From Geosiphon pyriformis uo1 (lineage: Eukaryota > Fungi > Glomeromycota): DNA of 64,000 nucleotides. Of the stretch, positions 3,443 to 63,011 are shown one piece after another. The number at the start of each line of letters is the position of its first letter. Positions within the stretch are counted from its first letter, which is position 1. The position numbers and the translations under genes are program-made. The notes beneath the pieces were generated by a model that did not search any database, had not been told where the DNA came from, and was given only the letters and a program-made list of their open reading frames with translations. The stretch covers positions 1 through 64,000 of the forward strand of contig JAAOMT010000480.1 in the NCBI GenBank assembly GCA_016748015.1. The letters run 5' to 3'.

Positions 3443-4357
3443 CTGTATAGGTTTCAGCTAAATGCTCATTTAGGAACCAGTTTTAAAAGTCTTAGAATTG
3501 TCTGCTGAATTGTTTTTCAATAGGAAAGCAAATCAAACAGGAGGGCAAAGAATTGAGTTCAATAAAGTCTAAATCATTTTTGTTATATGCTTCAAAGTGT
3601 TTTTCTGATTGTTATGGCAGGTATAAATAATCACTCATACAATAGGAAACAAAGTGGATTTTGATAATCTTACAAAGAGCACTACTTTTATGTTATGGGT
3701 TGGAGTAACAAGCTAATGAATAACAAGAGATAACAAGATTATAGGATGATAAAAAGAATCAAAGGGATTTTAATTTCAAAGAGCAAATTGAATAAATATG
3801 GATTTAATGTGCAAGATTAGTCTCATAAAATATTTCAGTCATTATACTTTTTAAGGATAACCAGAGAATCTGAAAGTAAAGAGATAGTCTGTACTGTCAA
3901 CAAATAATCATACACTGGTATAATTTTATGTCTTATGTCAGCATTCTTAAATTTAATATTAGGTATCAGATATACTCTTCAGTTATATTTTATTCAATAA
4001 TCTTTAAATGCTGCAATTACATGTTTCAGGAAAAGAGTAGGCAAATAACCAACAAGTAATCTTTTATCCCAAGATGTTTGGATACTTAAAGATAAGGAAA
4101 AAAAATTTAGCAATAAGAGAATAATTGAGATAAAAGTTGTTATTTTAATTATTTGATTTTTTTAATTTCTACATGTTTTTCTACAGCTAAGAGATTTATC
4201 ACTTATATAGTTATTAAAAGTGGTTAATTATTAGGTCAACAACTAGGTCAATGATTAGGTCAATGATTACTTTCTAAAAATAGAGTGGCTAATTTATATG
4301 ACATCAGTGGCTAATATATGTAATAATTAATAAGAAGTATAAGTTTCAACCATAACA
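3443..4357 (-). mobile_element. Family A Gypsy 5' remnant: 5' LTR (3691-4357), degenerate PBS and gag N-terminus
   Basis: Reverse complement matches A1 39032-39945. It is interrupted by the family C LTR ending at 3442. Confidence 0.85.
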
Positions 4358-10008: not shown

Positions 10009-11368
10009 TGTTATAATTAAAACCCATACTTTTTATTAATTATTACATGTATTAGCCACTGATGTCATATAATTAGCCACCCTATTTTTAAATAGTAATT
10101 ATTGATCTAATCAATAAGCTGACTATTGACCTAATCATTAACCTGATTATTGACCATTTTTAATAGCTATATAAGCAATGAGTTTCTTAGCTGTAGAAAG
10201 ACATGATCAAAGTAATGAAATAAAACCTACTATTAATTACTTTCTCTTATATTGCTTATTCTTTTTTCTCTACTTTCAAGTATTTGAACATCTTAGAATA
10301 AAAGATTACTTGTTGACATTCACATATCTTATCTTTTTTTTTTCTTGATTTGTATTATTAGAATTAGTCTGAGAAGTGATTGCTTGCTTCTGTGATTCAT
10401 TGAATAAAAAAACAATTGAAAAACACAATAATATCTATTATTGATTCTAAAAATCACTAAGTTGAGACATAGAATAATAGCAGTAGTATTATTTTGTTAA
10501 CAATCATGAACTATTTTTCTATCTTCAGATTTCCAGAAAAAATTTGCAACTGTGATTTTTATAAGACTGATCATGTACATTGAATCCTTATTTATTTAAT
10601 TCGCTTTCTTATTGTAATTTTCTCTTTGATTATTTCCATCACTCTACAATCCTGTTTTTCCTTGCTTGTTACTCCAATCTGTAACATAAAAGTAGTACTT
10701 TCTGTAAGATTGTCAAAATTTACTTTGTTTTCTATTGTATGGGTGATTATTTATATCTGCCATAACAATCAGAAGAACACTTTGAAGCACACAACAAAAA
10801 TGATCTAGACTTTATTGAACTTAATCTTTTGCCCTCCTGTTTGATTTGCTTCTCTATTGAAAAACAATCCAGTAGACAATTCTAAGACTTTTAGAACTGG
10901 TGCTTGAATGAGTATTCAGCTAAAACTTATACAGCTTATACAACTTATTACTTTAACCAAGCTTATTTTGAAGACAACTTTGAAAAAAGAAACAACAGTA
11001 TCAATCAGCTTTTATATTCCACAACTTTTGAACAACAGATCTCTGATTCTAAATACCTAAATTACCAAATTCACATTTGAATTGCTGCCCATTAGTTAGT
11101 TAAAACACTTTTTAAAACAGAAGAAGAAAGCTATCAAACTGCTCTTGTTTTTAATCTCTTTTTAAGTGAATCAAAACATTTTACACAAACAGCTACTTCT
11201 AAACCAATGGCTAATAATCCTATACAACAAAACATTCTGGCCACCCTTCAAGACATACAAACTGCTTTAGGGTGAAGAAACAATATCCCATTACTTTTAT
11301 TCAAAGGTGATACACAAAACCCAATTGAATGGTTAGATGATTTTGAAAGAGCAGTCATTGACAATCAA
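10009..11368 (+). mobile_element. Family A 5' fragment: LTR 10009-10686, degenerate PBS, gag from 10739, truncated
   Basis: TGTTA...TAACA termini. Gag is colinear with A1 and switches abruptly to minus-strand pol at ~11369. Confidence 0.85.
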
Positions 11369-13572: not shown

Positions 13573-16500
13573 TGTTACAGGTTGAAATAACAAGCTAATG
13601 GATAACAAGGAAGAATAAGATTGTAGGGTGATGGAAATAATCAAAAGAGAATTCAACTTTAAAGAGCAAATTGAATGAGTATAGATTCAATGTGTGAGAT
13701 CAATCTCATAAAATATCTCAGTCGCTATTCTTTTCAAAGGTAACTGGAGAATCTGAAGGTAGAGGGATAGTCTATACTGTTAACAATTGATCACCACTGG
13801 TATAATTCTATGTCTCATGTTGGCGCTCTTAAAATTCAATATTAGGTATCAACTTGTGCTTTTCAGTTATGTTTATTCAAATAATCTTCAAATGCTACAA
13901 TTATATATGTCAGGAAAAGGCCAACAAGTAATTTTTTATCCTAAGATGTTTGGATACTTGAAGGTAGAGAAAGGGAAATTAGCGATAAGAGAGTGATTGA
14001 GATGAAAGTTGTTATTTTTATTTATTTGATTCTTGTCTGAGAGATAATTTTCTATAGCTAAAAGACTTATTATTTATATAGCTATTGAAAGTGGTCAACA
14101 ACTAGGTCAATGATCACTATCTAAAAATAGAGTGACTAATTATATGTTATCAGTGGCTAATACATGTGATAATTAATAAAAATTATGAGTTTTAACTATA
14201 ACATTATTCTCTTCAAAAAGATTGAGCTTTGGCAAAATCAAGCTATTTATAGGGTATTCTAATTAAAGGGTTTTGTCTAACTCAAAACTAACTAGTTTGT
14301 TGAAGTCTTTTGTGGATAGAGTATATAGTACTTGAGGCGAAATAAGCTTTGTATCCAAGAAACCAAATCTTTGTATAAGAGTTTTGGCTCTTCTTGCAAT
14401 GGTCAAAACTCTTAGAACATCTAAACGTATAATGCCCAAAATTTCCACTTGTATCTCTGAAGTTGTTTTTTTCATGAGCTTCATTTCTTCTATAATTTCA
14501 CCAAGACAACCATAGAATTTTAGTTGTCTTTCATATAACAAGTTTTTGTCTATGGGCAAGATTTTCTTAATCGTTCTTCCAATTGTCATGGAAAGTGTAA
14601 GTATTGCTGCTGTTATGCTTTCCAGCAAATACTTATCCATTTTGCTACCAATTCTTTCTTTTCTGGTAGTGGTTTTCTTTGGTCTAATAACAGTATGTGT
14701 TCCATTGTTATTAGTTATGATGGTTTGTTTTCCAATGGTCAGAGTAGCATTTGGATAATTTTTGATCCAGTACTCATAGAGAGTATAGAAAGCATTTTGA
14801 ATGTTTTGATCTAGGAAATAATTGTTCATGTTGATTGAAGATACCTCTGTTTTGGGAATGGTACATTTATTTATATCTGATTTTTGTTGATCATTTGGAT
14901 TGGTATTACCACAACAGGTAACCAATCAGGTCGTTTGTAATATTTCTTGAGTCATGTGCCATAAACAGGGCGATCATTGAAGATTGTTTCATATTGATCT
15001 TATAAGATATAAGAACCATTGTTCAAAACTTTGTTAACTATAAAGGGTCTTTTCCACTGGCTAGAAAATTTATTACCATAGACATTGTTTTTGTCTGAAT
15101 GGTATTCTAAAACTAAGTCACCAACACTTAAGGAAAGTGTTTTATATGTTTTCTTTTTTTTAAGCTTCTCTTGAAATTGTTTTATCTTTTTAAAGGCAAT
15201 TATTCATGCTTCTATTAATGAGTCAAGAATGGTACTAAGTCTTCTTTGCAAAGTGTCTTTGTAATTCCCTATTGTTATTTCTTCAAAGGGTATTATCTCA
15301 ATGTCAGTTTCTATTGGTAGGATTGCCATTCATCTATAGAGTAGATAAAAGGATTCATAACTTGTTATGTCATGATTCACAGTTCTATAAGCGAACAAAG
15401 CTGAAGACAGTACTTTGTCCCATAAGTTTATTTCTTCACTGGTTTTGGCTAGGATTTCACATAGAGTTCTATTGAAATGTTCTACTAGGCCATTTGTTTA
15501 GGGGTGATAAGGAGAGGAAAGTTTGTGACATATTCCCATTTTTTTGCAAAGTTCTTCAACAAGTGTACTGAGAAAAGCTCTTCCTCTGTCAAATAAAAGT
15601 TCTTTGGGGCAGCCATGGTGACAAATAATATCTTCATAAATGAAATTGGCTATTGAGACTGCTGTTTGGTCTGAAGTGGCTTTTGCTTCTATCCACTTTG
15701 TAAAATAATCGGTAGCTGTGATAATGTATCTGTTGCCATTAGGAGTTATTGTTAAAGGTTCAACAACATCTATACCAATTCTGTCAAAGGGTTGACCAAC
15801 AGAGATTAGATGGATATCTTCTTTGCGATTGGGTTTTCCTCTTCTTTGGCAGATATTACAGGTTTTAATGTATTCAGCAATGTCTTTTTCCAAGGTAGGC
15901 CAATAATAACGAGCTAGAGTTTTCTGAATTGTTTTTGTTTTTCCAAAGTGTCTAGCTAATGGATCAGTGTGCATATTGTAGATCACAATTTTTCTTTCTT
16001 CAAATCTAATAACTCTCTGGGAGTGGTCAGGATCTTTTCTATTTCTTTTATAAAGTTGGTTTTAGCGAATCAAATAGAAATTTGATTGTTTGCACAAATG
16101 TTCTCTTTGTTGTTGTGTGTATTTTGGTGGGTATTGTTCTTTACCCAAAAATTTCATTAAGACAGAGTAGTTGTCCAAGTTCATTATCGTGTTTGTCAAA
16201 AAGGGGAATTACTAATAATTAAGTTGGTTTGGTTTGAGAGGGTTGTTCTGTCACTGAATGGTAAGTCTGGAGAGAGTGTCAGTGTTTTGATGATTAGCTT
16301 CTTTGTGATGTTGAATATCATAGTCGAATTCATCCAAGTGGAGTATTCAGCAAATTATCTATTTGTGTTCTAGCCTCTTTTTGTTGCACAGCCAAACCAA
16401 AGCTTGGTGATCTGTTACCACCAAAAACTTCACACCAAGAAGATACTTATGCAAAAGAAGTAGCAGCCACTTGAGGAGTGGAAGCCATGACAGGAGCAGG

Positions 16501-18302
16501 AGCAAAAATTGGAAGTGTGAATCTCAGATGCATCCTTTGGTTATTTTCAATCTTTTGGGCGAGTTCAATAGCCATATTCATTGTAGAGTTGTCTTTTAGA
16601 GCCAAGAGAGGCCAAAGAGCATATAAATTAGTTCTCAATCTTTTTGTAAAGGAATAAATTTTTTGCTTTTCAGTCCAGTTTCTACCAGAGTCTACACACT
16701 TAATGAGTTTTCTGATTGCTTTGGCATATTCAGTCACAATTTCACCAGGATTTTGGGTTCTTCTTTCTAATTCCATATGCCATTTGGATATTAAGATGGG
16801 GGTTCTGAATTTGTTTTCAAACCGGGTAGTAAAAGAGGTATTGTTTTCTCTAATATTTGCTAGGGTCCATTTAACAATTCTTTGTTGAGCACCAGTATTG
16901 GTTTTTTGTGAAAACCAGATAGCAGGGAAGCCTTGAAGGTAGCCATCAATGATTTAGAACTTGTATTCATTATCATACTGGTTTGCAATGGCTGCTCTTT
17001 TAAAATCATCCAACCATTCAATTGGATCTTGGGCATCACTTCTGAATAGAGGTAGTGGGGTGTTGTTTCTTCATCCCAAAGCAGTTTGTATGCTTTGGAG
17101 GGCAGCCAGGATGTTTACTTGCATTGGATCTTGGGCCATTGGTTCAGGAGTTACTGTTTGTGTGGAGTGCTCTGATTCACTTAAGAAGAAATCAAAAATA
17201 GGGGCTGTTTGGTAGCTTTCTTCTTTTGTTTCAAGAGGAGTTACTGTTGATTGATGGGCAGCAATCCAAATATGGATTTGATGATTCAGATATTCAAAAT
17301 CAGGGGGCTGTTGTTCAAAGATTGTAAAATATAAGAGCTGATTGATACTGTTATTTCTTTCTTCAAAGTCATTTTCAAAATAAGCTTGATCAAAGTAATA
17401 GGTTGTATAAGTTGTATAGATTTCAGCTAAATGCTCATTCAGGAACCAGTTCCAAAAGTCTTGGAATTGTCTGCTAGATTGTTTTTCAATGGGAAAGCAG
17501 ATTAAGCAGGAGGGCAGAGGATTAAGTTCAATGAAATCTAGATTGTTTCTGTTGTATGCTGTAAAGTGTTCTTCTGATTGCTGTGACAGATATGAGTAAT
17601 CACCCATATAATGAGGAAATAAGTGAATTTTGACAACCTCACAGGAAGCACCACTTTTATGTTATGGATTGAAGTAACAAGCTAACAGATAGCAAGGGAG
17701 AACAAGATTGTAGGATGATGGAAATAATCAAAGGGGAATTCAACTTTAAAGAGCAAATTGAATGAGTATGGATTCAATGTGCGAGATCAGTCTCATAAAA
17801 TATCTCAGTTGCTATTCTTTTCAAAGGTAACTGGGGAATCTGAAGGTAGAGGGATAGTCCGTACTGTCAACAATTGATCACCACTGGTATAATTTTATGT
17901 CTTATATCGGTGCTTTTAGAATTCAATATTAGGTATCAACTTGTGCTTTTCAGTTACATTTATTCAAATAATCTTCAAATACTACCATTATATACATCAG
18001 GAAAAGGCCAACAAGTAATCTTTTATCTTAAAATGTTTAGATACTTGAAGGTAGGGAAAGAGAAATTAGCAATAAGAGAGTGATTGAGATAAAAGTTGTT
18101 ATTTTTATTTATCTGATTCTTGTCTAAGAGATAATTTTCTACAGCTAAGAGACTTATTGCTTATATAGCTATTGAAAGTGGTCAATGACCAGGTCAACGA
18201 CTAGGTCAATGATTACTATATAAAAATAGAGTGGCTAATTATATGACATTAGTGGCTAATACATGTGATAATTAATAAAAATTATGGGTTTCAATTGTAA
18301 CA
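13573..18302 (-). mobile_element. Family A element A4, internally deleted (lacks gag C-terminus, PR, RT and most RNase H)
   Basis: LTRs at 13573-14203 and 17660-18302, TSD ATAT on both sides. Gag (...AATSFA) is joined to the RNase H end at ~16448. Integrase ORF 15498-15986 has HHCC and catalytic-core motifs. Confidence 0.92.
14174..14829 (-). pseudogene. Family A accessory ORF3 (best-preserved copy)
   Basis: Open from MNNYFLDQNIQNAF to ...FELDKTL (stop at 14263, CAA in A1). The reconstructed end lies inside the 3' LTR. Confidence 0.8.
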
Positions 18303-39031: not shown

Positions 39032-39697
39032 TGTTATGGTTGAAACCCATAATTTTTATTAGTTATCACATGTATTAGCCACTGATGTTATATAATTAGC
39101 CACTCTATTTTTAGATAGTGATCAATGACCTGATCATTGACCTGATCATTAATCTGATCATTGACCTAGTCATTGACTACTTTCATTAGTTATATAAGCG
39201 ATGAGTCTCTTAGCTGTAGAAAATCATCTCTCAGACAAGAATCAAATAAATAAAAATAACAACTTTCATCTCAATCACTTTTTTATCGTTAATTTCCCTT
39301 TCCTTATCTTCAAGTATTCGAATATTTTAGGATAAAAGATTACTTGTTGGTCTTTTCCTGACATATATAATTGTAGCATTTGAAGATTATTTAAATAAAC
39401 GTGACTGAAAAGCACAAGTTGATATCTGATATTGAATTCTAAAAGTGCCGACATGAGGCATAGAATTATACCAGTGGTGATCAATTGTTAACAGTATAAA
39501 CTATCCCTCTACCTTCAGATTTCCCAGTTATCTTTGAAAAGAATAGCAACTAAGATATTTTATAAGACTGATCTCACATATTGAATCCATACTCATTCAA
39601 TTCACTCTTTGAAGTTGAATCCCCTTTGATTATTTCCATCACCCTACAATCTTGTTCTCTCTTGCTATCCATTAGCTTGTTACTCCAACCTGTAACA
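39032..39697 (+). repeat. A1 5' LTR
   Basis: TGTTA...TAACA termini, 12-bp tandem repeats at 39120-39180, TATA-like TATATAAG at 39191. Confidence 0.95.
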
Positions 39698-39703
39698 TAA
39701 AAG

Positions 39704-39720
39704 TGGTGCTCCCTGTGAGG
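39704..39720 (+). promoter_or_regulatory. Primer-binding site, probably elongator tRNA-Met
   Basis: TGGTGCTCCCTGTGAGG is the complement of CCTCACAGGGAGCACCA, which resembles eukaryotic elongator tRNA-Met 3' ends. The same PBS occurs in family B (55293-55308, minus strand). Confidence 0.8.
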
Positions 39721-39749
39721 TTGTCAAAATTCACTTATTCCCTTATTGT

Positions 39750-41306
39750 ATGGATGATTACTCACATCTGCCACAGCAATCAGAAGAACACTTTGCAGCA
39801 CACAACAGAAACAACTTAGATTTCATTGAACTTAATTTTCTGCCCTCCTGCTTGATCTGCTTTTCCCTTGAAAAACAATCTAGTTGACAATTCTAAGACT
39901 TTTGGAACTGGTTCTTGAACAAGCATTCAGCTGAAACCTATACAGCTTATACAACCTATTACTTTGACCAAGCTTATTTTGAAAATGACTTTGAAGAAAG
40001 AAACAACAGTATCAATCAGCTCTTATATTCTGCAACCTTTGAACAACAGCCCTCTGATTTCGAATATCTGAATCATCAAATTCACATTTGGATTGCTGCC
40101 CATCAAACAACTGAAACTCCCTTTGAAACAGAAGAAGAAAGCTATCAAACTGTCTCTGTTTTTGATCTTTTATTAAGCAAATTAGACTCGTCTACACAAA
40201 CAGTTACCCCTGAACCAATGGCTAATGACCCCATGCAAACAAACATTCTGGCCGCCCTCCAAGGTATACAAATTGCTCTAGGAAGAAGAAACAATACCCC
40301 ACTACCACTATTTAGAGGTGATGCACAAGATCCAATTGAATGGTTGGATGATTTTGAGAAAGCTGCCACAGCCAACCAGTATGATAAAGAATACAAGTTC
40401 CAAATTGTTGGTGGTTATCTCCAAGGCTTTTCTGCTATCTGGTTTTCACAAGAAACAGATGCCAATGCTCAACACAAAATAATCAGATGGACACCAATCA
40501 ATGCTAGAGAAGAAAATACCTCTTTTACTACCCAATTTGAGGCCAAGTTCAGAACCCCAATATTAATATCCAAATGGCGCATGGAATTGAAAAGAAGAAC
40601 CCAAGGCCCTGGAGAAGTAGTGACTAAATATGCTAAAGCTATTAGAAAGCTAATCAAATGTGTAGACTCTGGGAGAAACTGGACAGAAGAACAAAAGATT
40701 CATTCCTTCACAAAAAGATTGAGAACTGATTTATCTTATGCTCTTTGGCCTCTCTTGGCCCTAAAAGACAACCCTACAATGGACATGGCCATTGAACTTG
40801 CCCAACGAATTGAAGATAACCAAAGAATACATTTGGGATCTACACTTCCAGTTTTTGCTCCTGCTCCTGTCATGGCTCCTGCCCCTCAAATGGCTGCTGC
40901 TTCTTTTGCTGCCCAAACTCAAGATCCAAATGAACAATTAATTAATAAACTCACAGCCAATTTTGCCTGGTTATTAAAACCTTTGGCACAAGCAGTCAAA
41001 GATAACCAGCAACCACCAAGACTTAGATACAAACCTTGTTTTAACCAACCCCAGCAATCTCCCTATCAAAGACAGCAAAATTGTGGCCCACCTGTGTGCT
41101 ATTATTGTGGATTAACTGGACATTATTCAAGAGATTGTAACAATCCTTCACTGCCTTCTCTAGCTTTCAGAAACAATGACAACCAAAACAACAGACCCAA
41201 TAACAACAACAATGTCCCCAATTAAAGACCCAATCATGTCAACATCAATTTCTTTGGAGAGGATCTCCTAGTTGAAGCCACTGTTTATTAGCCTTTAAAC
41301 TGGTAG
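39750..41306 (+). pseudogene. gag: A1 gag (N-terminal HHCC-like domain, capsid, CCHC knuckle)
   Basis: ORF 39915-41225 contains DPIEWLDDFEKAA and CYYCGLTGHYSRDC. The TAA at 41223 is CAA in the copy near 6750, so the true stop is probably TAG 41304-41306. Confidence 0.9.
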
Positions 41307-41342
41307 GCGCACCTCCAAAGGGTGAGAGTGCAAGCCAACCAG
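41294..41342 (+). promoter_or_regulatory. Putative -1 programmed ribosomal frameshift signal
   Basis: T TTA AAC in the gag frame, with pol in the -1 frame. CTGGTAGGC pairs with GCCAACCAG and inner GCAC pairs with GTGC. Confidence 0.8.
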
Positions 41343-44300
41343 AAGAAAACCCCTTTTACACTTTTAACTTAACTGATGATGACCATGACATAGATGAACT
41401 AGCAATCAACCCCTCTGAATCCACAAGAAAGAAGAAAAAAGCCAAAGTTGATTTCGTTTTAGACCCCAATAAAGCTTCTACATCAACTGCTGACAACAAT
41501 AAGCCCCCAAAAGCCAAAGTTTTCAAGAACTCTTCAAAGTTAAAACCCCCAGAAATAGTACAAAAATCCGGCTCCTATTCTGTTGTCAAAAACCTCATGG
41601 AAACTCCAGCACATATAACCTTTGGCCAATTGATGACCCATCCACAATTCAGAAAAGATCTTTGCAAATCTCTGATTCCAAAAAAAAAGATACCCAAAAC
41701 CAACAAACGCTCTTGCCAAGCTGGACTTGCTGACAATAGCAATGTCACTCCTCTAATTTGCAAAGCCCAAGTGGCTGGCTACTTTATCGATTTGATCCTA
41801 GACAGTGGATTATCTGTTAGTGTTATTGTTAAACACTTTCTTGAAGCAATTGGCAGAAAAATTGATAAACCATCCACATGACCAATGACCAATGTGCATA
41901 GTAATAAGAAGAAAGGGCTTGGCATAGCCAAAGCTATTCCTGTCCGCATCAATGGCATCAGCATTGAAACTGATATGGAAGTATCTAAAGTGAAAGAATA
42001 CATCATCATTGTTGGCAATAAATGACTTAAGAAAGCAAAAGCTTTGCTTGATTATGAACTCTGTAAACTAACCATCAGATGTGGTGAGAAACCCATTGTG
42101 GTTAAATGTCGCCATTGGACAACTCCCCCAGTACCCAAACAGAGCCCAGAAGAAAATGAATCAGACGAATCAGATGATAAAGAAAGTGAGAAAGAAGAAG
42201 AACAAGAAAAACAAAAAGAAACTGCTGAACTCGCCTATACCATCTTCATCAGCAATAGCAAACCACTGGATAATGTCAAGGCAGATAAAAAAAAAATCAT
42301 TGTCAATGGCAAGCTGATCTGCTGGCCTTATTATGACATGCTCAGAAGAACCTTTAACAGAAAGCCAGGCAAGAAAGCCAAATACAGTTATTGGTGGCAT
42401 GATCCTTGTGCCTGGTGCTGGTGTGACAAACCATTGTATTCTCCTAGTGATAAATACATATCCTGCTTGATCTATTACAAAGATTGGGAACCAATCAGCT
42501 TGATACCCCATAAGGAAATAAAAGAAGTCCAAAAGTTCTTTGAAAATGAACCACCTGAAATCCAATCACTGGTTGTAGAACAAAAAAAACTCTCTCTAGA
42601 AGAAAGAAAGATAGACATTGAAAACCTGCTGGCTAAAAACAGCCCAGTTATCTCAAAAGAAGGTGAACCTCCTGGATGTACACATGTAATACAACACACC
42701 ATCATCACCAGAGAAACTTGTCCCATCCATTTGAAGCCCTATCAATCCAACTGGCACAATGATGAGTTTATCAAAAAGAAAATAACCCGAATAAAAAACC
42801 TTGGATTCATATAGGAAACCAAGAGTGAATGGACATTCCCGGTTGTAGTGGTATCCAAGAAAGAAGGAACTCTACACTTTTGTATTGACTATTGCCAATT
42901 AAATGCCATTACTGAAAGAGACATGTACCCACTTCCCAAGATTGATGCAATGCTAGACCAATTCCATGGTGCTGCTTTCTTCTCAACCATTGACTTGACT
43001 ACTGGATTCTGGCAAGTAGAGATGGATCCAGAAAGCAGAAAGAAAACTGCCTTCATCACCAAGTATGATATCTACAAATTCACAGTTATGCCTTTTGGTC
43101 TCATAAATGCTCTTTCCACCTTTTAATGCTTAATGGACAAAGTATTTGAATCAGTAAAAGAAAACTTTGTTCTAGTCTACTTGAATGACATAATGATATA
43201 CTCAAAAACCTGGGATGAACACCTTGAACATTTGTAAAAGGTTTTTGACCTTCTTAGAAATGCTGGTCTCAAGATCAATCCAATCAAATCATTCTTTGGA
43301 CGTCAATCCACCCAGTTCCTTGGCCATTTTATTACAAAAGATGGAATCTTCCCTGATCTAGCCAAAATTGAAAAAGTTCAAAACATTAGACAACCAATGA
43401 ATGTTCATGAACTATGCTCTTTTCTTGGTTTGGTCTCTTATTATCACAAGTTTGTCAAGGATTTCTCTAAAATCACCACTCCTCTCAATCAGCTACTTAG
43501 GAAAAACATCAATTATTACTGGGGCACTCATCAACAAAAAACATTTGAAATTTTGAAGGAAAAACTGGTTACAGAACCCATCCTCATGCAATCTAATCTG
43601 GATCGATCTTTTATTTTCCATACTGATGCATCTGGCTATGGACTTGGTGCTGTTCTTTCCCAGAAAAATAAAGATGGCAAAGAACATGCTGTAGCATATG
43701 CCAGTAAAACTCTCACACCAGCAAAAAGAAATTACTCAGTCACTGAGCAAGAATGCTTAGCAGTAGTTTGGGCTACCAGCTACTGGGACAAATATCTTAA
43801 GGGTGTGAAATTTTTGGTGGTAACAGATCACCAAGCTTTGGTTTGGCTACACAACAAAAGAAACCTGGAACATAAATAGATAACTTGCTGGATACTCCAC
43901 TTGGATGAATTTGACTATGAAATTCAACACTGCAAAGGAGCTAATCATCAAAACGCCGACGCTCTCTCCAGACTTACCATCCAGTGATAGTAAAACCCTC
44001 TCAAACCAAACCAACTTAATTATTTGTAACTCCTCTACAAACAAACACGATAATGGACTTGGACAACTACTCTGCCTTAATAGAATTTTTGGGTAAAGGA
44101 CAATACCCACCAAAATACACATAACAACAAAGAGAACATTTGCGCAAACAATAAAATTTCTATTTGATTTGTCAGAACCAACTTTATAAAAGAAATAAAA
44201 AAGATTCTGACTGCCCCCAGAGAGTCATCAGATTTGAAGAAAGAGAAATTGTGATCTACAATATGCACACTGATCTATTAGCTAGACACTTTGGAAAAAC

Positions 44301-45366
44301 AAAAACAATTCAGAAAACTCTAGCTTGTTATTATTGGCCTATCTTGGAAAAAAACATTGCTAAATACATCAAAATCTGTGATATCTGCCAAAGAAGAAAA
44401 AAACCCAATCACAAAGAAGATATCCATCCAATCTCTGTTGGTCAACCTTTTGATAGAATTGGTATAGATGTTGTTGGACCTTTAACAATAACTTCTAATG
44501 GCAACAGATACATTATCACAGCTACCGACTATCTTACAAAGTGGGTAGAAACAAGAGCCACTCTAGACCAAACAGCAGCCTCAATAGCCAATTTCATTTA
44601 TGAAGATATCATTTGTCACTACGGCTGCCCCAAAGAACTTTTATCTGATAGAGAAAGAGCTTTTCTTAGTACACTGGTTGAAAAACTTTGCAGAAAAATG
44701 GGAATACGTCACAAACTTTCCTCTCCTTATTACCCCCAAACAAATAACCTAGTAGAATGTTTTAATAGAACACTATGTGAAACCCTAGCCAAAACCAGTG
44801 AAGAAACCAACTTATGGGACAAAGTATTGTCTTTAGCTTTGTTTGCCTACAGAACTGTGAATTATGACATAACAAGTTATGAACCTTTTTATCTGCTTTA
44901 TGGACGAATGGCAACTCTACCAATAGAAATGAATATAGAAACAATACCTTTTGAAGAAATAACAATAGAAGATTATAAGAACATTTTGCAAAGAAGACTT
45001 GGTATCATTTTTGACTCATTGGTAGAAGCACAGATAATTGCCTTTAAAAAAATAAAACAATTCTAAGAAAAGCTTAAGAAAAAGAAAACATATAAAACAC
45101 TTTCTTTAAGTATTAGTGACTTAGTTTTAAAATATTATTCAGACAGAGACAATGTCTATGGTAATAAATTCTCTAGCCGGTGGAAAGAACTCTTTATAGT
45201 CAACAAAGTTTTGAACAATGGTTCTTATATCTTATAAGATCAATATGAAACAATCTTTAATAATCGCCCTGTTTATAGCACACAACTCAAAAAATATCAC
45301 AAACGACCTAATTGGTTACCTGTTGTGGTAATACCAACCCAAATAATCAGCAAAAATTAGATATAA
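41300..45366 (+). pseudogene. pol: A1 pol: aspartic protease, Cys-rich spacer, RT, RNase H, integrase (several nonsense changes)
   Basis: Motifs LILDSG; FCIDY...MPFGL...YLND (from YLDD); HTDASGYGLGAVL...TDHQAL; HHCC; GIDVVGPL...SDR...PQTN; C-terminal GPF/Y-type module. Confidence 0.93.
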
Positions 45367-45407
45367 ATAAATGCACTATTCCCAAAACAGAAATATCTTC
45401 AATCGAC

Positions 45408-46063
45408 ATGAACAATTATTTCCTGGATTAAAACATTCAAAACGCTTTCTATACTTTCCATGAGTATTGGATCAAGAACTATCCAAATGCTACTCTAACT
45501 ATCGGAAAACAAACCACCATAACAGACAACAGTAGAACTCACACTGTTATCAGACCAAAGAAAACAACTACCAGAAGAGAAAGAATTGGTGGCAAAATAG
45601 ATAAATACCTGCTGGAAAGCATAACAGCAGTGATACTTTTACCTTCTAGCACAATTGGAAAAATGATACAAGAAATCTTGCCCATAGACAAAAACTTGTC
45701 ATATGGAAGACAACTAGAACTCTATGGTTGTCTTGATGAAATCATAGAAGACATGAAGTTCATAAAGAAAACAACTTCAGAGATACAAGTGAAAATTTTG
45801 GGCATTATACGATTAGATGTTCCAAGAATTTTAATCATTGCTAAAAGAGCCAAACTCTTATACAAAGATTTGGTCTCTTGAATACAAAGCTTATTTTGCC
45901 TCAAGTACTATATACTCTATCCACAAAAGACTTCAACAAACTAGTTAGTTTTGAGTTAGACAAAACCCTTCAATTAGAATACCCTATAAATAGCTTGATT
46001 TCACCAGAGCTCAATCTCTTTGGAGAGGATGATATTACAGTTGAAACCCATAATTTTTATTAG
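45408..46063 (+). pseudogene. A1 accessory ORF3 (stops plus one frameshift), terminating inside the 3' LTR
   Basis: ATG at 45408. ORFs 45630-45881 and 45878-46063 are pieces of it. Homologous to 14174-14829. Confidence 0.8.
46022..46032 (+). promoter_or_regulatory. Polypurine tract of A1
   Basis: GGAGAGGATGA abutting the 3' LTR. Confidence 0.85.
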
Positions 46064-46708
46064 TTATTACATGTATTAGCCACTGATGTCATATAATTAG
46101 CTACTCTATTTTTAGATAGTGATCAATGACCTGATTGTTGACCTGATCATTGACCTGATCATTGACCTAGTCGTTGACCTGGTCATTGATCACTTTCATT
46201 AGCTATATAAGTGATGAGTCTCTTAGCTGTAGAAAATCATCTCTTAGACAAGAATCAAATAAATAAAAATAACAACTTTCATCTCAATCACTCTCTTATC
46301 GCTAATTTCCTTTTCTCTACTTTCAAGTATCTGAACATCTTAGGATAAAAGATTACTTGTTGGCCTTTTCCTGACATATATAATTGTAGTATTTGAAGAT
46401 TATTTGAATAAACGTGACTGAAAAGCACAAGTTGATACCTGATATTGAATTCTAAGAGTGCCCGTGAGGCATAGAATTATACCAGTGGTGATCAATTGTT
46501 GACAGTATAGATTATCCCTCTACCTTCAAATTCCCCAGTTACCTTTAAAAAGAATAGCAACTAAGATATTTTATAAGACTGATCTCGCACATTGAATCCA
46601 TACTCATTCAATTTGCTCTTTGAAGTTGAATTCTCTTTGATTATTTCCATCACCCTACAATTCTGTTCTCCCTTACTATCCATTAGCTTGTTACTCCAAC
46701 CTGTAACA
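46033..46708 (+). repeat. A1 3' LTR
   Basis: Direct repeat of 39032-39697 with one extra 12-bp unit. Confidence 0.95.
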
Positions 46709-49371: not shown

Positions 49372-52300
49372 TGTTACAGGTGATTATTTGGGGTCTCAAA
49401 TCAAATAACAAATTTGTAACTTGGTACTCAATAGCTAATATAATAATATTGGTCTCTGAAAGTTTAGGTTGTCTAAAGATTTATGTTGACTGAAGATTTA
49501 GGTTAAGTTCTTTGTATAATAGACAAAGATTCAATAGTTGTTTTCAGTAGTCTCCCAAAATCGCAGTTTTGTCAATTTTTTTCTTGGTTTAGTGGCTGGC
49601 AATCCTCTGGTAAGCAATCCATATTTCTTACATGTTTTACTCATTTGCAGGGGTCTTTTATCAGACAATCTTTGATGTCAATAACTCAGTGCTTTAATCT
49701 CTAATCAATTAACCAACAACAAAAAATAACAAAATAAAATAAAATAAAATAAAAGAAAAAAATAAGCCAAGACAATAAATATTAGTATCCCATCAATAGT
49801 CATGATCAAGAGCTATTGTTTCAATATGGTTTAAGTATCAATTACTATTAACATGAAGTATTAATAGTAGAGAGTGAATTGAAATAACAAATAATTATTT
49901 ATTGATATTTGTGAATTAGAAGGTTGCTTAGATAAAATCTAAACTAAGAGGTCTGTTTTTTCTGTTTCTAATATTACTATTATATATACATATTTGAAAT
50001 TTCTTAATTTCTCTATTCTTCCCACCAAAAATTCTGGAATTCTGAAATTTCTCGAGAGGAATTCTGAAATTCTAGAATTCTGCAATTTCTTGTATGAGAA
50101 TTCTGTAATTTCTGAAATCTTATAATTTATTTGAGAGGAATCCTGGAATTCTCTATTTTACTATATTTATTTCTAATTGACTAATATATACTACTATGAT
50201 TCCTATTTTTTATAAGTAACATTAATCTTTTCTTTTTAATATTGAGCTCCATTAAGATTTCTGAACTCTCCTAATTCTTCTTTTGTTACTCTATTAAGTT
50301 TTCAGTAATTCACACAAAAACAAATTTTCTCATTTTTTTTCCAAACCAATACAACTGGTGAAGACCATGGACTCATTAATAATTAAATTAACCTGTTGTC
50401 CAGCATTCTATTAATTTCTTGATAGATGATCTCATAACTGGCTGGTGGTACTTTGTATGCTCTCTGTTTAATTGGCATTACATCTCCAGTTTTGATTTAA
50501 TGCTAAATTATGTCAGTTCTACCAAATTTGTTTTCACTGACAAAGATGTCACTGAAGTTGTTAAGTAATATTTTAAGCTGCATATATTGTAGTGAATTTA
50601 GATTTCTCAAGTTTATCTGTTCTAATTGTTCTGATTGGAACAGATAACATTTTTCTCATTTATATATTGTTTGTGATGTGATATCCACATATCTACACAG
50701 TTGTGGAAAGTTTGGAATGGGGTTTGGTGGTTGTTTTTCAACTTTAGTGCTTAAATATCTAATGGTGATTTTTTTTGGTATCTTCAGAACATTTCCTGTT
50801 GTGTTGTAGATGAGAATTTTGATATGTTTTGGGCTCTTAGCTGGTATGTAAAGATTGGTAAGTCCAATCTTTCCTAATTTGCAAATAGTAGTTTTTACTT
50901 CAAAAATTTAGGCTTGATTCTTTACTTTTCTTTCTATGGCTAATATGTATTGGTTATATGGTAGAATGGAAATTGATTGATGGGTGAAGATAATTTCTTT
51001 CTTGTCAATAACCTCTTTCTTTGCTATATTAATTAGTACATTTATTCTACTCGTGAATTCAAATCCACTAATCTCTTTTACTGTTATTTCTAATTCCTCC
51101 CTTTTTTCTACTGACATTAATTGAGCTATTTTAATCAAAAACAAAAATATTGTCTGTGCTATCTTTTCATTTGGCTCTATGATATAGGCTTTTTCTAAGT
51201 TATTTTGTAGTATTGTAATAATATTTTCTACATATCCTGCATCAATTATTTCTCCTCTGATATTGATTCCTTTTTTTTGCTAAATTACTTTTAGATGCTA
51301 ATTGAACCATTGTTGTTGCTGGGATTTCCAGTGCTATTTTGAGATTAATACAGATATGCAAATATGGTCCCAATTTGATGGCTTTTTTTTCTGGATATTT
51401 CAGATTAAACTCTGCATCAATATTATGTGTGTATTTAGACATAATATTTTTATCATTATTACTGAACCATTTAAGTTCTTGTTTTTTAGAGAGATCAGAA
51501 AGCACAATATATTGTTCTGGGTTTGAATTGGAGTCTAAACTGTTGTTATTTTCATTGCCATTTTAAATAGAGCTAGAACCATTATTTTCATTGTCATTAT
51601 TGTCAGAGTTTGAATTAGAATTGAATGTTGATTCTGATTCTGATGCACAGTTGCTGATTGGTTTTTTTTCCTCTGGAATTATGTAGATCATGCATAGTAG
51701 TAGATTGTAGATGAAATTACACTCATTACAATACTAGAAGTTACATAGAATCAAATAGTAGTCACATAATTGGGTGTTTATTTCTTCTAAATGCTGCTTT
51801 TGCTCTTTTTTTGTTGGTGTCAAATTCTGGTAATGCTTGTAGAATTTCTTTGGACCTGTCTCAATATCTAAAAATGTGTCTGAATTGGGGATAAGAATGA
51901 TATCAACTGGTTCTGGAGGATTGTTTTTTATCTTTAGGATCTTACTAAGTAAAGCATTTTCTATCTTGGCATTGGCCATTCACCAGATCTTATTTTTGTC
52001 ATGTGAATAGCCATCCAAGCAAAAGATTGCTCAATGCCATACAGCAATAATAAATGTGCCATAACTGATCCAGTTACTTATAAGGATTGTGTACTGGCAC
52101 AAAATATCACATGTTTCTCCTTGACCAGGAATATTGTTCCATATTTCTTTATTAAGCAGCTGTTCTCTACAAGTAAAACATGGTTTGTTGTTCTACTTGT
52201 CTTGTTATTTTAAATAGCCATACTGTTTTCTATAACATAATTTACAATAATAGTGAATTTGTGTCCAGTAGTCTTCATTGGGTGCAATCTAAGCTCCTAT

Positions 52301-55300
52301 GGAAGAAAATTTCTTGACACAATCTTGGCATTTGAGTGAAATATATGGCAGTTGCTTTAGTGGCTCATGTGCATAAAATTTTTCCCAGCCACTAGTTATT
52401 TTTTCTGTGATAATGTCTTTTTCTGGTGCATTTTTTTTCTTTTTCTTCCCTTTGTCATCTCAAAAAAATACTGGTGATAACTCATTGTGTTTGGTATTGG
52501 TCCAGAAAACTTGGTAGGCTTTTCAGGTAGGTTTTTCTTCTTCTTCATTGAACTTGATAAGTGGTGCTGTTATGTTGGTGTTGGGTTTAAAATTACCACA
52601 AATAGCTGGTACTTGTGTATGTCTATCATTTTGGCTGAGTTGTAATTCTTGGGTGGTCTAATCGAATACAGCATTTGCTTTAGTTAACCAATCATTACTA
52701 ATAAGAGCTTGGTATTGAGTGGCTTTTATAATTAAGACTTTGATGGGTATAATAATACTGTTGATTTCAAATGAGAAGTCATTAATTTTACTGATTAGGG
52801 TTTTGGTTGTGTCATTGGTGGTGATGATCTTAGTACTGGCAGTTTGATTAACTCATCAACCTAATTGGTCTATGAATTGTCATATGATAATACTATCTGC
52901 TAACCCACTATCAAGAATTAGTTTAATGGACCAATTATCAGCTTTGGTATCAGTGTATATTGTGGTGATAGGTTTGATATCAAAAATGATTCCACTCAGT
53001 AATAGAACTGAAGCAGTTTCTTCAAGTTCAAAAGGAAATATGGTAGCAAGTATTTTATTCTCAGTACTGGTTGCTGGTAGAATGTTGCTAATAGATGGCT
53101 GTTTTTAGTTAGTTTTCTGGTTGTTGGGTGAGACATTTTCTGGGGTAACCAAAAGACTTAAATAGTGTTGGGAATTCGGGTTTTGGATGTATCCAGTTCT
53201 CAAACTTTGCTGTCATGATCTCAATAGTTGGTTGGAAGAGCTGAAGATTGGTTGATAGACAACTATCACCAATCTCTAGTTTTAGATAACTCTTAATCTG
53301 AGATTCTCTGATGTTATTTGAGCTGAGTTTGGTGGTAGGATTGGAATTGCTGGTGTCTAATAGATTAGTTGTGACTGTGGTAATTAATAGATTATGGGTG
53401 TTGTTGGTTGATATATTGGAAATATGTATATTGGTTGTTACATTATTTGGGTATAATTTGGTTGATACTGGTCTTAATTTAGGTAATAACTTGGAGTTTA
53501 AAATCAGTAATTGGGGTTTTAATATTGATTTTCTGATCATGGGTTATTGCTATAAACTTGGCAGCTAGCTCTAATATAATCTTGTTTACCATAATTATAG
53601 CAAACATGCATTTCTGATTTCCATAATTGATTGGTTAATAATAATAGATATGGCTGATTTTGGAAACAATTTGAGTTTTTTGTATTATTACATTGTTGTG
53701 GAAATTGATAAATTACCTGATTGTTAGCTAAGTATCCCTCTAATTTCTGATTAATTAAATCACTAAACTGCTTTAATTTAGAATTCAAATCAGATAATCC
53801 ATTCATTATTAAATTTATGGCTTGGGTATGGTTGGCTTCAAGTTCTACTGCTTTAAAATCTCTGGCATTTGTAACTGCAGCTTGCAGATCTGCTGGATGC
53901 AATAGGCATATGTATTGGAAGATACTACTGCACAGACCTCTAATGAACTGGTTTAAGATTTGTGATGTGATGAAATAATTAGCTTGTATTGTCTGAATTT
54001 GGTGCAAATTTCTATGAAAGCATCCTAGGTATATAATGACTGCTTTGGTGTCTCTCTGTTTGATAGTGGTAAAAGTATTGACCAGTTGGTTAATATTATT
54101 ATTGTTACTAAAGTATCACAAAAACTCAAGCTTAAATGCATTAAAGTTTTGGAGTTTGTTAACCAAGCTTTAATACTATGAGTTGGCAGTATTTTGGAGA
54201 AAATATAAAATGGCTTGTATGGCTCTGACATTATTCCATCCATTGGCTGCAATGGCTTTTTTGATATTATTTAGTTACACCTAGTTATTATCCTCTTTGC
54301 TGGTGAACTTTTTGATTTTCATTATTGGTACATATGTCATTAGAGCTATGGAGAGTTGTTGTTGCAATTGTTGTAGTTGCTGAAGTGGCTGTTGTGGTTG
54401 TTGAATTGGTTCAGCAATCAATTCAATTGGTGGCTAATTAATCACAATTACTGGAAATAAGTATTGCTAATTAATGATGTCAAAGTTTGAATTGTCCTGA
54501 TTTTTCTAAGTTTAAATATTCAGAATTTGATTTTCTAGATTTTCTGAGATCAGGTTTTGGTAATTAAATTTCTGATCTTCATTTTTTTTTTTCTGATTCT
54601 GTCACTTTCCAAAAATTTACGGTTCTGAAATCTGGTTGAAGTGGCAGTAATTGAAATCTTGATGAAGTCAGTAATCACAATTTAAATCTTTTAAAATGAT
54701 TGCTATAGGTTCCTAATAATTCTGTTTTCTTTTGTTTACTTTAAAATGGAAGTTGAACTAATAATAGTTTCACATTTGAAGTAAATGTGCCTGGTGATTA
54801 AATATTAATGGCACTTCTAGGTATATAGTAATATAATGAGTTGGTTGGAGATTCTACTCTTGTTTTCTTCCAAGTAAGTGGTTATATTTTTTGAGGTATT
54901 ACTGCTAGTGTTTATAGTTTTCTTTTGCCTTTGTTTACATAAGTGATTGGATATCTTTGTTGAGTATGATGTTCAATTTCTCTATTGATTTCAGTAAGAA
55001 TTGCTATAAAATTATGATTTGCTAGTAGGCTGGTATTTTGAATTAATTCATTGTAAAAATTTCCTCTTACAAAGTCGGATTCTATTAGTACTCCTAGCAA
55101 ATATGAGATTCTCTTATTGACATAGAAATTGAAGACTAATTCTGCTAATAGGTGATTGTTGGTTAATTCTAAGTGTTAACAGTAGTATTAAAATAAGAAT
55201 TTGGTGAATCTTAAATGGTTTGTCCTTATTCTTTTTGGTTTTGCCACTTTTGGATAGTTGTTGGTTGGTGCTGGTTTTCTGTAGGATTATATCTTACAGG

Positions 55301-56107
55301 GAGCACCAAATATTACAGGTAATTATTTGGGGTCTCAAATCAAATTACAAACTCATAACTTGGTGCTTAATAGCTGATATAATAATGTTGGTCTCTAAAA
55401 GTTTAGGTTGTCTGAGGATTTATGTTGACTAAAAGTTTAAGTTGAGTTCTTTGTATAATGGACAGAGATTCAATAGTTGTTTTCAATAGTTTTTTGGAAT
55501 CACAGTTCTGTCAATTTTTTTTTCAGCTTAATGGCTAGCAATCTTTTAGTAAGCAATCTGTATTTCTTATGTGTTTTACCTATTTGCAGAAGTCTTTTAC
55601 CAAGCAATCTTTAATATTAATAACTTAGTGTTTTAATCTCTAATCAATTAGCCAACAACAAGAAATAACAAAATAAAATAAAATAAAATAAAAAAAAGAA
55701 ATAAGTCAAGACAATAAATATTAATATCCTGTTAATAGCCGTGATCAAAAGCTATTGTTCTAGTATGATTTAAGTATCAGTTACTATCAACATAAAGTAT
55801 TAATAGTAAAGAGTGAATTGAGATAACAAATAATTATTTATTAATATTTGTGAATTAGAAGGTTGCTTAGATAAAATCTAAATTAAGAGATCTGTTTCTT
55901 CTGCTTCTAATACTACTGATATATATATTTATTTGAGATTCCTCAATTTTTTTATTCTTTTTGCCAGAAATCCTGGAATTCTAAAATCCTGTGATTTTTT
56001 ATATGAGAATTCTATAATTTCTGAAATCTTGGAATTCCCCATTTTACTATGTCTACTTCTGATTGACTAATATATACTACTATAATTCCTATCTTTTATG
56101 AGTAACA
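49372..56107 (-). mobile_element. Family B element B2, internally deleted (keeps gag, PR, Cys-rich domain, dUTPase and the RT start)
   Basis: LTRs at 49372-50221 and 55311-56107, TSD ATGT, PBS. RT ...FCVNY*KLN is joined at ~50280 to the pre-PPT sequence. Confidence 0.9.
51048..51442 (-). pseudogene. dUTPase domain in family B pol (B2)
   Basis: Relics of all five trimeric dUTPase motifs in order: DAEFNL, ASKSNLA, IIDAGYV, EKIAQ, SGFEFTS. Confidence 0.85.
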
Positions 56108-61300: not shown

Positions 61301-63011
61301 TGGTATTATAATTAATACAATTGATACAACTGGTGGATTGATTATGATTATGAGAGATAAGTTTTGCTAAATAATAGAAACAGAGTTTGGATTGTTCAGA
61401 TCTTGTAAAGTTTAAACAATCAAAGTTTGTATTTCTTGTTTATTTAAAATTGGGTTCTGATTATTATTTTCCTAATTACTGTTTTTTTTTCTTCCAAATT
61501 GGTATTTTTCCAATAACTAATAGATCTGAAATTTGGTTGTAGTGGCAGTAATCAAAATTTTAATGGAATTGTTGATTGCAATTTAAATTTTTCAAAGAAT
61601 TTGCTATAAGTTCCTAACAATTTGGCTTTCTCTTAATTATTTTAGAACTGTATTTTTGATAATAGTGTTTTTATAGTTAATAGTAATATAGATCTTAATA
61701 ATATGTGTATAGTACTTTCTGGTATATAATAATAGAACAGATAAATAGATAAAATAACTCTTGGTTTTTTTCAAGTAAGCAGTTGTGTTTTTTTGGTGTT
61801 TCTGTTGAAGTTTGTAATTTTTCTTTGTTTGCAAAGATAATAAAAAATCTTTGTTGAATGTATTTTTCAATTTTTTTGTTTATTTCTATAATTAATAATA
61901 TAAACAAATGATTTGGTAGAAGTATAATGTTTTGAAATAATTCATTGTAGAAATTGTTGAGAGTGGTTTTTGGATTTTTTTGGTCTCCTAAATAAGATTT
62001 AATTTTTTTATTAACATAGAAATTAAAAGTTGATTCTGTTGGCCAATGGTTATTTGTTAATTCAAGGTAAATTTAGTAATATTAAAATAAAAATTTTGTA
62101 AATCTTAAATGATTTTTTCTTATGATTTCTTAGTCTGCCACTTTTTCAGATAATTAATGTTAATACTGGTTTTCTGTTAGATTATATTTCACAGAGAGCA
62201 CCAAATATTATAGGTAATTATTTAAAATGTTAAAACAAATAACAAACTTGTAACTTGGTATTTAATAACTAGTAATGTTAGTAATATTTGAAGATTTTAT
62301 GATTTGAAAATTTTGGTTAAGTCTTTTATATAATAAACAGAAATTTAGTCGATGATTTCTTTTATAAATTTTTTTTTTAATTTAGTGGCCAGTTTATTCT
62401 AATAGTTATGTTTTTCTGGTAAACTATTCTTAAATTTCTACTCTTATTTCCAGATTTTTTACCAAACTATTCTTAATGTCAAATACTCAGCACTTAATTT
62501 TTTTAATTAATTAGTAACAACAAAGAAATAAAACAAAAGAAATAAAAATAAAGAAAAATAAAAGAAAAATAAGAAAAAAAATAAGAAATTAGTATTTCAT
62601 CAATAGCTGTAATTAAGAGCTATTAGTTCAGTATAGTTAAATATTAGATTCTATTAATATGAAGTGTTAATAGTAAGAAAATAATTAATATTTTTAATTA
62701 AATAATAATAACATAGATTGAATGATAATTAGATATTTAATATTTGATGTGTTTTTACTTCAAGTTATAAAAAACTATTTTTTAAAAAAAAAGTATTGGA
62801 ATTCTGAACTCTATTAAATTCTGAATACTTTTCTGTTTTTAATACTTTCACTATATATATATAATTTGTATTATATGAAAATTTTGGAAAATCCTGCAAT
62901 TTTCTAAAAGAATTCTAAAATTCTGAAATTCTGTAATTTCTTATTTTACTATGTCTATTTCTGATTGGTTATTTTATTTATTATTATAATATCTAATTTC
63001 TATAAATAACA

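What the first reader, a model, noticed from the sequence alone, without database searches (positions are those of the whole stretch)
17749..17847. LTR carries a split copy of the primer tRNA-Met anticodon arm, broken at the tRNA intron position
Seen: antisense to the element, the family A LTR reads TCAGTCTCATA (17787-17797), a 40-nt spacer, then ATCTGAAGGT (17838-17847), with AAGAGC(G) upstream at 17749. Known (from memory): eukaryotic elongator tRNA-Met contains ...GCG-TCAGTCTCATA-ATCTGAAGGT..., and tRNA introns sit between positions 37 and 38, exactly where the spacer falls. The PBS matches the same tRNA. The two blocks persist in LTR subtypes whose spacer differs in length and sequence (10521-10570, 33598-33648, 39511-39571, 3817-3877). 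Inference: the element RNA has extra tRNA-pairing boxes ~130-190 nt upstream of the PBS. This would be an extended PBS analogous to Ty1/Ty3 boxes and HIV-1 tRNA-Lys3 contacts, and may derive from a captured intron-containing tRNA gene.
Basis: partly seen in the sequence, partly recalled or inferred. Interest (0 to 1): 0.75.

Follow-up and report, generated by a model that had tools for sequence, protein, structure and literature searches.

The report
Retrotransposon LTR mirrors primer tRNA arm
A fungal-type jumping gene carries in its end repeat two short blocks that together are the exact complement of the anticodon arm of a eukaryotic methionine tRNA, likely the tRNA that primes its copying, so they probably give that primer a second grip, though the host's own tRNA could not be checked.

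Summary
In the 5' LTR of a Ty3/Gypsy element (minus strand), 17787-17797 and 17838-17847 equal positions 27-47 of eukaryotic elongator tRNA-Met genes fetched here, split by 40 nt; 0 of 20,000 LTR shuffles reach this. The PBS (17636-17653) fits Met(CAT)-type 3' ends. Across 11 copies in three subtypes the blocks show no subtype difference (LTR 27%, spacer 45%), each inside its own conserved island, but the LTR has 13 such islands. A distant Gypsy family in the window with a PBS of the same type has a decayed block-2-like 9-mer but no block 1. Best reading (0.5): U5 contacts with the primer's anticodon arm, the spacer looped out, like HIV-1 U5 contacts rather than Ty1 boxes. Against: the host tRNA was not seen, the block-2 core TGAAGGT recurs at 18046 and in relatives with other PBS types, and tests in 17 relatives are only suggestive. 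A captured intron-bearing tRNA gene is poorly supported: no D-arm or T-arm sequence flanks the blocks, and the break fits three registers. The scan's earlier notes hold no such finding.

The parts
17660..18302 (-). 5' LTR (family A, subtype A) of a Ty3/Gypsy element; TGT..ACA ends
   Evidence: 4-bp target duplication ATAT around 13573-18302
17636..17653 (-). primer-binding site, 18 nt, 6 nt from the LTR end; fits Met(CAT)-type tRNA 3' ends
   Evidence: copy at 39704-39721 reads GGG where this copy has GGA; X1 contigs read G at 17646 in about 75% of depth
17787..17797 (-). block 1: on the element strand the complement of tRNA-Met 27-37 (5' anticodon stem and loop)
   Evidence: no subtype difference in 11 columns; conserved run 17785-17800
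17798..17837 (-). 40-nt spacer (29 nt in subtype B); weak predicted hairpin
   Evidence: 18 of 40 columns differ between subtypes; -3.8 kcal/mol, z -1.4
17838..17847 (-). block 2: on the element strand the complement of tRNA-Met 38-47 (3' anticodon stem and variable loop)
   Evidence: no subtype difference in 10 columns; conserved run 17837-17851
17749..17755 (-).
18046..18052 (-). second TGAAGGT (plus-strand reading), inside a conserved run 18040-18053
18161..18167 (-). candidate TATA box; with AATAAA at 18104-18109 or 17959-17964 it places the blocks in U5 (inferred)
13573..14208 (-). 3' LTR of the same element, blocks at 13700-13710 and 13751-13760; the element keeps gag and integrase but lacks protease and RT
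39033..46706 (+). most complete family A copy: gag (zf-CCHC), protease-like ORF, RT, RNase H, integrase, extra ORF; blocks at 39511-39571 and 46522-46582
55293..55308 (-). PBS of family B (unrelated LTR), same type as family A; second copy 62188-62203
49459..49504 (-). 17-nt tandem units in the family B LTR with a decayed block-2-like core; also 55395-55445

Best explanation
The two blocks are conserved LTR sequences complementary to positions 27-47 of eukaryotic elongator tRNA-Met, and they likely pair with the anticodon arm of the primer tRNA in the element's RNA, the 40-nt spacer being predicted to loop out as a hairpin. Shown: sequence match, strand, position upstream of the PBS, conservation across subtypes. 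Inferred: that the primer is the host's elongator tRNA-Met with this arm; that the blocks lie in U5 and so only at the RNA's 5' end; that, with the tRNA's 3' 18 nt on the PBS, the Gag zinc-knuckle protein opens the anticodon arm onto the blocks as a 21-bp duplex that helps select or hold the primer or paces initiation. The two duplexes cross (not nested), as HIV-1's U5 contacts do, so a second tRNA molecule binding the blocks is an equal possibility.
For: 0 of 20,000 shuffles reach the 21-nt two-block match; the opposite strand scores 10. 7 of 7 eukaryote-type Met genes from genome contigs have TCAGT before the searched core, and L016's 3' end agrees with the family PBS at 12 of 15. 0 of 21 block columns differ between subtypes against 177 of 648 in the LTR and 18 of 40 in the spacer; 9 of 580 equally spaced column pairs are as clean, 5 of them this site; the conserved runs (16 and 15 columns) track the blocks. 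25 of 27 changes in the blocks over 11 copies are C>T or G>A, as decay gives. Cofold of the U5 with tRNA 1-58 chooses the 21-bp duplex with the spacer hairpin, 4 of 200 shuffles as good; of 16 anticodon arms Met-e pairs best with this U5 (z -3.5, next -1.7). Family B (RT about 33% identical, same PBS type) has a decay-blind 9-nt match to the arm, 38 of 5,000 column shuffles. L023, with a Met-like PBS, has the first 8 nt of block 1.
Against: The host's tRNA-Met was not seen; no genome is held. Phage Met tRNAs with exactly this 3' end have other anticodon arms, and Ile(TAT) genes have similar ends. The LTR holds 13 conserved runs of 10 or more columns, and the U5 flanks are themselves conserved (5 of 32, 12 of 53, 16 of 89 columns differ). 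TGAAGGT recurs at 18046 and in 3 of 17 relatives, none with a Met-like PBS. Family B lacks block 1, no single copy exceeds 7 exact nt, and its duplex test is negative (p 0.49, 0.75). L023's duplex test gives p 0.076. TCAG and CTGA in the blocks can pair with each other, so an internal stem would explain 4 of the 21 nt. The spacer hairpin is not better than shuffles in any of 10 folds (z -1.5 to +0.9). With the PBS included and a non-host tRNA, the nested cofold uses the PBS only (the program cannot draw both).
Confidence: 0.5

Rival explanations
1. Coincidence on top of ordinary LTR constraint: the blocks are conserved for another job (a local stem, a packaging or processing motif with a TGAAGGT core) and their likeness to tRNA-Met is chance, picked out among the many LTRs that such a scan reads.
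For: TGAAGGT is conserved a second time in the same LTR (18040-18053) and occurs in L037, L040 and L063, there 11-21 nt from a poly(A)-signal-like hexamer. 13 conserved runs cover 220 of 641 columns. The blocks are partly self-complementary. The primer's identity is unproven.
Against: 0 of 20,000 shuffles; no other tRNA of 133 scores above 16; correct strand, and the tRNA type that the PBS suggests; island edges follow block edges.
Confidence: 0.33
2. Relic of a captured intron-containing tRNA-Met gene lying antisense in the LTR, the spacer being the old intron.
For: A eukaryotic Met gene with a 17-nt intron at this place exists (L015, ARAGORN i(38,17)). The spacer ends in purines that could pair with C32-C34, as L015's intron does (sequence). 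A tRNA-gene-like stretch in HIV-1 U3-R is in print (title seen).
Against: No likeness to tRNA 1-26 upstream (3 or 5 of 26) or 48-73 downstream (8 or 10 of 26); local alignments are matched by 500, 180 and 435 of 500 shuffles. ARAGORN and Rfam find no tRNA in the window. The break fits after 36, 37 or 38, so hitting the intron site is about a 1 in 4 event (my estimate).
Confidence: 0.09
3. A piece of mature primer tRNA was once copied into the element during reverse transcription and later split by an insertion or local duplication; it is now kept passively inside a conserved U5.
For: The match is to the mature, abutting arm and on the strand that copying of the primer gives; the spacer repeats part of block 1 (TCTCAGT next to TCAGTCTC).
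Against: Read-through would carry the T arm between PBS and block 2, which is absent; passive carriage does not explain the clean blocks beside a variable spacer.
Confidence: 0.08

Closest known systems
HIV-1 U5 extended primer contacts (A-rich loop with the tRNA-Lys3 anticodon loop; upstream sequence with the 3' anticodon stem and variable loop; PAS), PMC3185550
   Same: Template sequence upstream of an 18-nt PBS complementary to the primer's anticodon loop and to its 3' anticodon stem and variable loop.
   Different: Here one predicted 21-bp complement of the whole arm, 134-194 nt from the PBS (the HIV A-stretch is 10 nt upstream), split by a spacer, in a fungal-type Ty3/Gypsy element with a Met-type primer; nothing probed.
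Ty1 and Ty3 bipartite PBS (tRNA-iMet), PMC5371799, PMC11381356
   Same: LTR retrotransposon RNA pairing with the primer beyond the PBS; Ty1's segments are separated by a loop.
   Different: Ty3's second part is in U3 about 4,800 nt away and binds T and D arms of initiator tRNA; here the target is the anticodon arm of an elongator-type tRNA, the 18-nt PBS is complete, and the blocks are inferred to be in U5.
tRNA-Lys3-gene-like sequence in HIV-1 U3-R (Piekna-Przybylska et al. 2010)
   Same: Primer-complementary sequence inside the LTR; as I recall, interrupted where a tRNA intron would lie.
   Different: There most of the tRNA is said to be matched and the role is strand transfer from U3-R; here only 27-47 is matched. 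Only the title was seen; the paper is not held; details are recalled.
Helenus TRIMs with tRNA-derived LTRs, PMC10886601
   Same: tRNA-like sequence in an LTR, also in fungi.
   Different: Helenus are short non-coding elements that keep boxes A and B as a polymerase III promoter; here an autonomous-type Gypsy keeps only the anticodon arm, antisense, without boxes A and B.

Membership tests
Ty3/Gypsy LTR retrotransposon | gag, then RT, RNase H, integrase in that order between two LTRs | tested here: met
   Pfam hits in 39897-45066: Retrotrans_gag/zf-CCHC, RVT_1, RT_RNaseH, Integrase_H2C2/rve
Ty3/Gypsy LTR retrotransposon | TG..CA ends, target-site duplication, PBS next to the 5' LTR | tested here: met
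   (4-bp duplications for 2 of 2 elements checked; PBS 6 nt from the LTR)
Extended primer-template contact (HIV-1 U5, Ty1/Ty3 type) | complementarity to a tRNA outside the PBS on the RNA strand, beyond chance | tested here: met
   using non-host Met genes
Extended primer-template contact (HIV-1 U5, Ty1/Ty3 type) | the matched tRNA is the host tRNA that binds the PBS | not testable with these tools
   no genome held; proxies agree at 12 of 15 PBS bases but other tRNAs share such ends
Extended primer-template contact (HIV-1 U5, Ty1/Ty3 type) | conserved above background | tested here: inconclusive
   0 of 21 columns differ, but flanks are conserved too and 13 such runs exist; contig table gave no rows over most of the blocks
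Extended primer-template contact (HIV-1 U5, Ty1/Ty3 type) | boxes change with the primer tRNA | tested here: inconclusive
   Val-like PBS group pairs best with a Val(IAC) arm (mean z -1.53) but a Lys(CTT) arm is close (-1.38) among 16 arms
Extended primer-template contact (HIV-1 U5, Ty1/Ty3 type) | physical pairing and an effect on reverse transcription | not testable with these tools
   needs probing and mutants
tRNA-gene-derived LTR (Helenus, or captured pre-tRNA gene) | collinear tRNA body with D arm/box A and T arm/box B around the anticodon arm | tested here: not met
Half-tRNA priming (copia, Ty5) | anticodon-arm complement directly after the 5' LTR, in place of a 3'-end PBS | tested here: not met
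   a TGG-type 18-nt PBS is present and the blocks are inside the LTR

The most novel reading that the evidence does not exclude
Gypsy elements of this fungal lineage capture the whole anticodon arm of their primer tRNA with a split U5 element of up to 21 nt, and rewrite that element when they switch primer (Met arm in family A, an inosine-read Val loop in part of the Val-like group, a T-arm box in L037): a natural series of primer switches with matching second sites.
Probability: 0.25. Interest if true: 0.7.

Novelty: new variant of a known kind. Interest (0 to 1): 0.45.

Why it matters
Contacts between template and primer tRNA outside the PBS are described from a few models (HIV, RSV, FIV, Ty1, Ty3) and their role is argued over. 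A 21-nt complement of a whole anticodon arm would be a long case, easy to probe, in a very high-copy family of a little-studied fungal lineage, where relatives with at least five PBS types allow a test of whether second sites follow the primer. If chance, it is an ordinary decayed Gypsy LTR.

Tried and rejected
Host genome: none held. No tRNA or Rfam family in the window. Viral contigs: no related element, no split-block LTR (one unrelated match), no PBS-plus-LTR match, no tRNA naming the Val-like PBS (3 matches, one phage Phe). No RNA holder listed. Contig laying on 17765-17870: rows appear only for 17804-17840, and the known C>T variant in block 1 is missing, so the table says nothing on block conservation; depth peaks over block 1 were not used, depth being a poor measure. 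AAGAGC(G) as a D-arm box: rejected. Block 2 as this LTR's poly(A) site: unlikely, 112 nt from the nearest AATAAA. T-arm (PAS-like) box in family A: none (5 nt, p 0.84); over 19 elements only L037 (10 nt, p 0.002) and L024 (9 nt, p 0.006) stand out. Family B 'CTCATAA' at the LTR end: 1 of 4 copies, the others read TTGTAA, so not counted. The first family B figure (10 nt, 24 of 5,000) rested on a tied column and was replaced by 9 nt, 38 of 5,000. Window LTRs do not align with relatives' LTRs. Folding of 17630-17900 is no better than shuffles (z 0.39).

Full report
Setting. The window (27% GC) is a nest of decayed LTR retrotransposons. The most complete copy, 39033-46706 on the plus strand, has gag, a protease-like ORF without Pfam hit, RT, RNase H and integrase in Ty3/Gypsy order. 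The named integrase relatives are from Rhizophagus at 45-47% identity; the closest (60-68%) are unnamed. I infer an arbuscular-mycorrhizal-type fungus; no genome is held. Contigs of run X1 laid on this LTR number 11,834, so the family is very abundant. Eleven LTR copies were aligned and fall by eye into three subtypes (A 4, B 3, C 4). The finding lies in the 5' LTR (17660-18302) of a minus-strand copy that lacks protease and RT.

Observation. Both blocks are exact at the stated places. Against eukaryote-type tRNA-Met genes fetched from genome contigs (L011-L017) the left block matches 12 nt (27-38) and the right 11 nt (37-47), so 21 contiguous tRNA bases are covered and the break may be set after 36, 37 or 38. 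The search pattern forced most of this arm; the unforced TCAGT was present in 7 of 7. None of 20,000 dinucleotide shuffles of the LTR reached 21 (3 reached 18). Only this copy scores 21; the other ten score 7-17. Of 133 distinct tRNAs, only the Met genes fetched with the motifs exceed 16; that top group is circular, the rest is the control. Allowing for about a hundred tRNA-strand choices still leaves roughly 1e-3 (my estimate); the number of LTR families read by the whole scan is unknown to me and weakens this further.

Primer. The PBS is 18 nt, 6 nt from the LTR. It agrees with L016's 3' end at 12 of 15 bases. Among 120 viral loci with a compatible T arm and acceptor end, 79 were typed Met(CAT) alone and 4 more Met beside another tRNA, 21 Leu, 8 Ile(TAT), 5 others, 3 untyped; every typed gene with this PBS's end was Met, but all of these are phage-type with other anticodon arms. 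So a Met primer is likely, and that it carries this arm is inferred. The host gene, and whether it has an intron, remain open.

Conservation. Scoring columns blind to C>T and G>A decay, the subtypes differ at 177 of 648 LTR columns, at 0 of 21 block columns, 18 of 40 spacer columns, and 5 of 32, 12 of 53 and 16 of 89 flank columns. The blocks sit in runs 17785-17800 and 17837-17851, two of 13 runs of 10 or more clean columns; 9 of 580 equally spaced pairs are clean. Over 231 cells there are 27 changes, 25 of decay type. Subtype B has lost 11 spacer bases and kept both blocks. This is modest support, about 1-2 in 100 by these counts, with few and related copies. The contig table could not add to it.

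Structure. A candidate TATA box (18161-18167) and AATAAA at 18104-18109 or 17959-17964 put the blocks in U5 (inferred). Cofolding this U5 with tRNA 1-58 gives the 21-bp duplex with the spacer as a hairpin (-15.5 kcal/mol over the separate folds; 4 of 200 shuffles as good); the other eight sequences folded gave -3.5 to -12.3. The hairpin alone is weak. Block duplex and PBS duplex cross, so the program cannot draw both. That geometry is the one of HIV-1's contacts upstream of the PBS (PMC3185550, passages) and not that of Ty3's U3 segment (PMC5371799, passages).

Second family in the window. Family B has an unrelated LTR, RT about 33% identical in the copy that keeps it, and a PBS of the same type in 2 copies. 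Its four LTRs give a decay-blind 9-nt match to tRNA 39-47, 38 of 5,000 column shuffles, partly in 17-nt tandem units. No copy has more than 7 exact bases, block 1 is absent, and the duplex test on two copies is negative.

Relatives. Of 80 metagenome loci, I kept 17 that show an LTR end followed by a TGG site, chosen by eye from the lists; 63 were dropped. Their LTRs do not align with the window's. One, L023, has a Met-like PBS and the first 8 nt of block 1 about 45 nt from it (duplex p 0.076). Seven share a PBS whose nearest fetched 3' ends are Val genes (L227, L241; label inferred, as are the labels Gly and Phe, which are recalled). Three of these 7 and 0 of the other 10 have GACACG, the Val loop with inosine read as G. 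Duplex p-values of the seven against two viral Val arms combine to 0.003 and 0.0005, against 0.59 and 0.51 for 12 other rows, but I saw the motif in these same sequences first, they are related, and among 16 arms a Lys arm does nearly as well as the best Val arm while three other Val arms do not stand out. L037, nested among Val-like elements (100/99), has a different PBS and a 10-nt U5 match to the T arm predicted from it (p 0.002, 1 of 19 tested). These are leads only. Against the reading, TGAAGGT occurs in L037, L040 and L063 and again at 18046 in family A; it also matches the variable loop shared by many tRNAs (a Val gene, L241, has GAAGGT), so it may be a general tRNA contact or an unrelated motif.

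Origin. A captured tRNA gene should leave D-arm and T-arm sequence beside the blocks; there is none. An intron at this site exists in a eukaryotic Met gene (L015), but the coincidence of position is cheap given three registers.

Literature. Seen as passages: PMC6468702, PMC5371799, PMC11381356, PMC10886601, PMC3185550; one reference line in PMC11241228. Piekna-Przybylska 2010: title only; its content is recalled. Searches for a like case in Gypsy or fungal elements gave 0 papers, 2 unrelated, and listings on Ty3, HIV, TRIMs, AM fungal transposons and mammalian tRNA-Met (17, 28, 59, 61, 62, 70; listings only). The library lacks most subscription papers, and no supplements were read; Repbase-type annotations could bear on novelty. 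Earlier scan notes returned half-tRNA priming cases only and nothing by sequence or place.

Verdict. A real and unlikely match, best read as a second primer contact in U5 (0.5), with chance on other constraint the main rival (0.33). New variant of a known kind; interest 0.45.

Noticed in passing
window 50908-51279 (-), in family B element 49374-56107: Decayed dUTPase ORF (Pfam dUTPase, E 8.7e-5) inside a Gypsy family whose PBS is of the same type as family A's.
   Followed up: partly
window 45432-45881 (+), 14263-14925 (-), 34369-34857 (-); L023:1441-2103, L024:3553-4215, L037:5842-6330, L040:1548-2039, L048:6576-7061, L049:8165-8638, L073:8713-9447: An extra ORF of about 150-245 aa between integrase and the 3' LTR in family A and many relatives; no credible Pfam hit; the window's and L023's do not align.
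   Followed up: partly
L037:6733 region against L045 and L049: Apparent recent primer switch: close integrase relatives with a different PBS; U5 holds a 10-nt match to the T arm predicted from the new PBS. The three PBS differences from the window's PBS are all of decay type, so its tRNA is uncertain.
   Followed up: partly
L033, L037, L040, L045, L048, L049, L063, about 45-60 nt upstream of the PBS: CAGGGA (read antisense) is kept in all 7 aligned U5 regions although the rest barely aligns; it resembles part of the PBS.
   Followed up: no
window 13569-13572/18303-18306 and 39029-39032/46707-46710: Target-site duplications of 4 bp (ATAT, ATAG) and a 6-nt gap between LTR and PBS in family A.
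   Followed up: no
whole window: Heavy C>T and G>A decay on both strands of all copies, not confined to CpG by eye; many nested insertions of family A into itself; 12-nt tandem units of variable number in U3.
   Followed up: no
window 532-1355: Run of 824 N; the long 'ORFs' listed at 466-1538 are artefacts of it.
   Followed up: yes
L011-L017, L234-L241 (G001-G005): Eukaryote-type tRNA genes sit in contigs filed under bacterial genomes, so these assemblies carry eukaryotic contamination.
   Followed up: no
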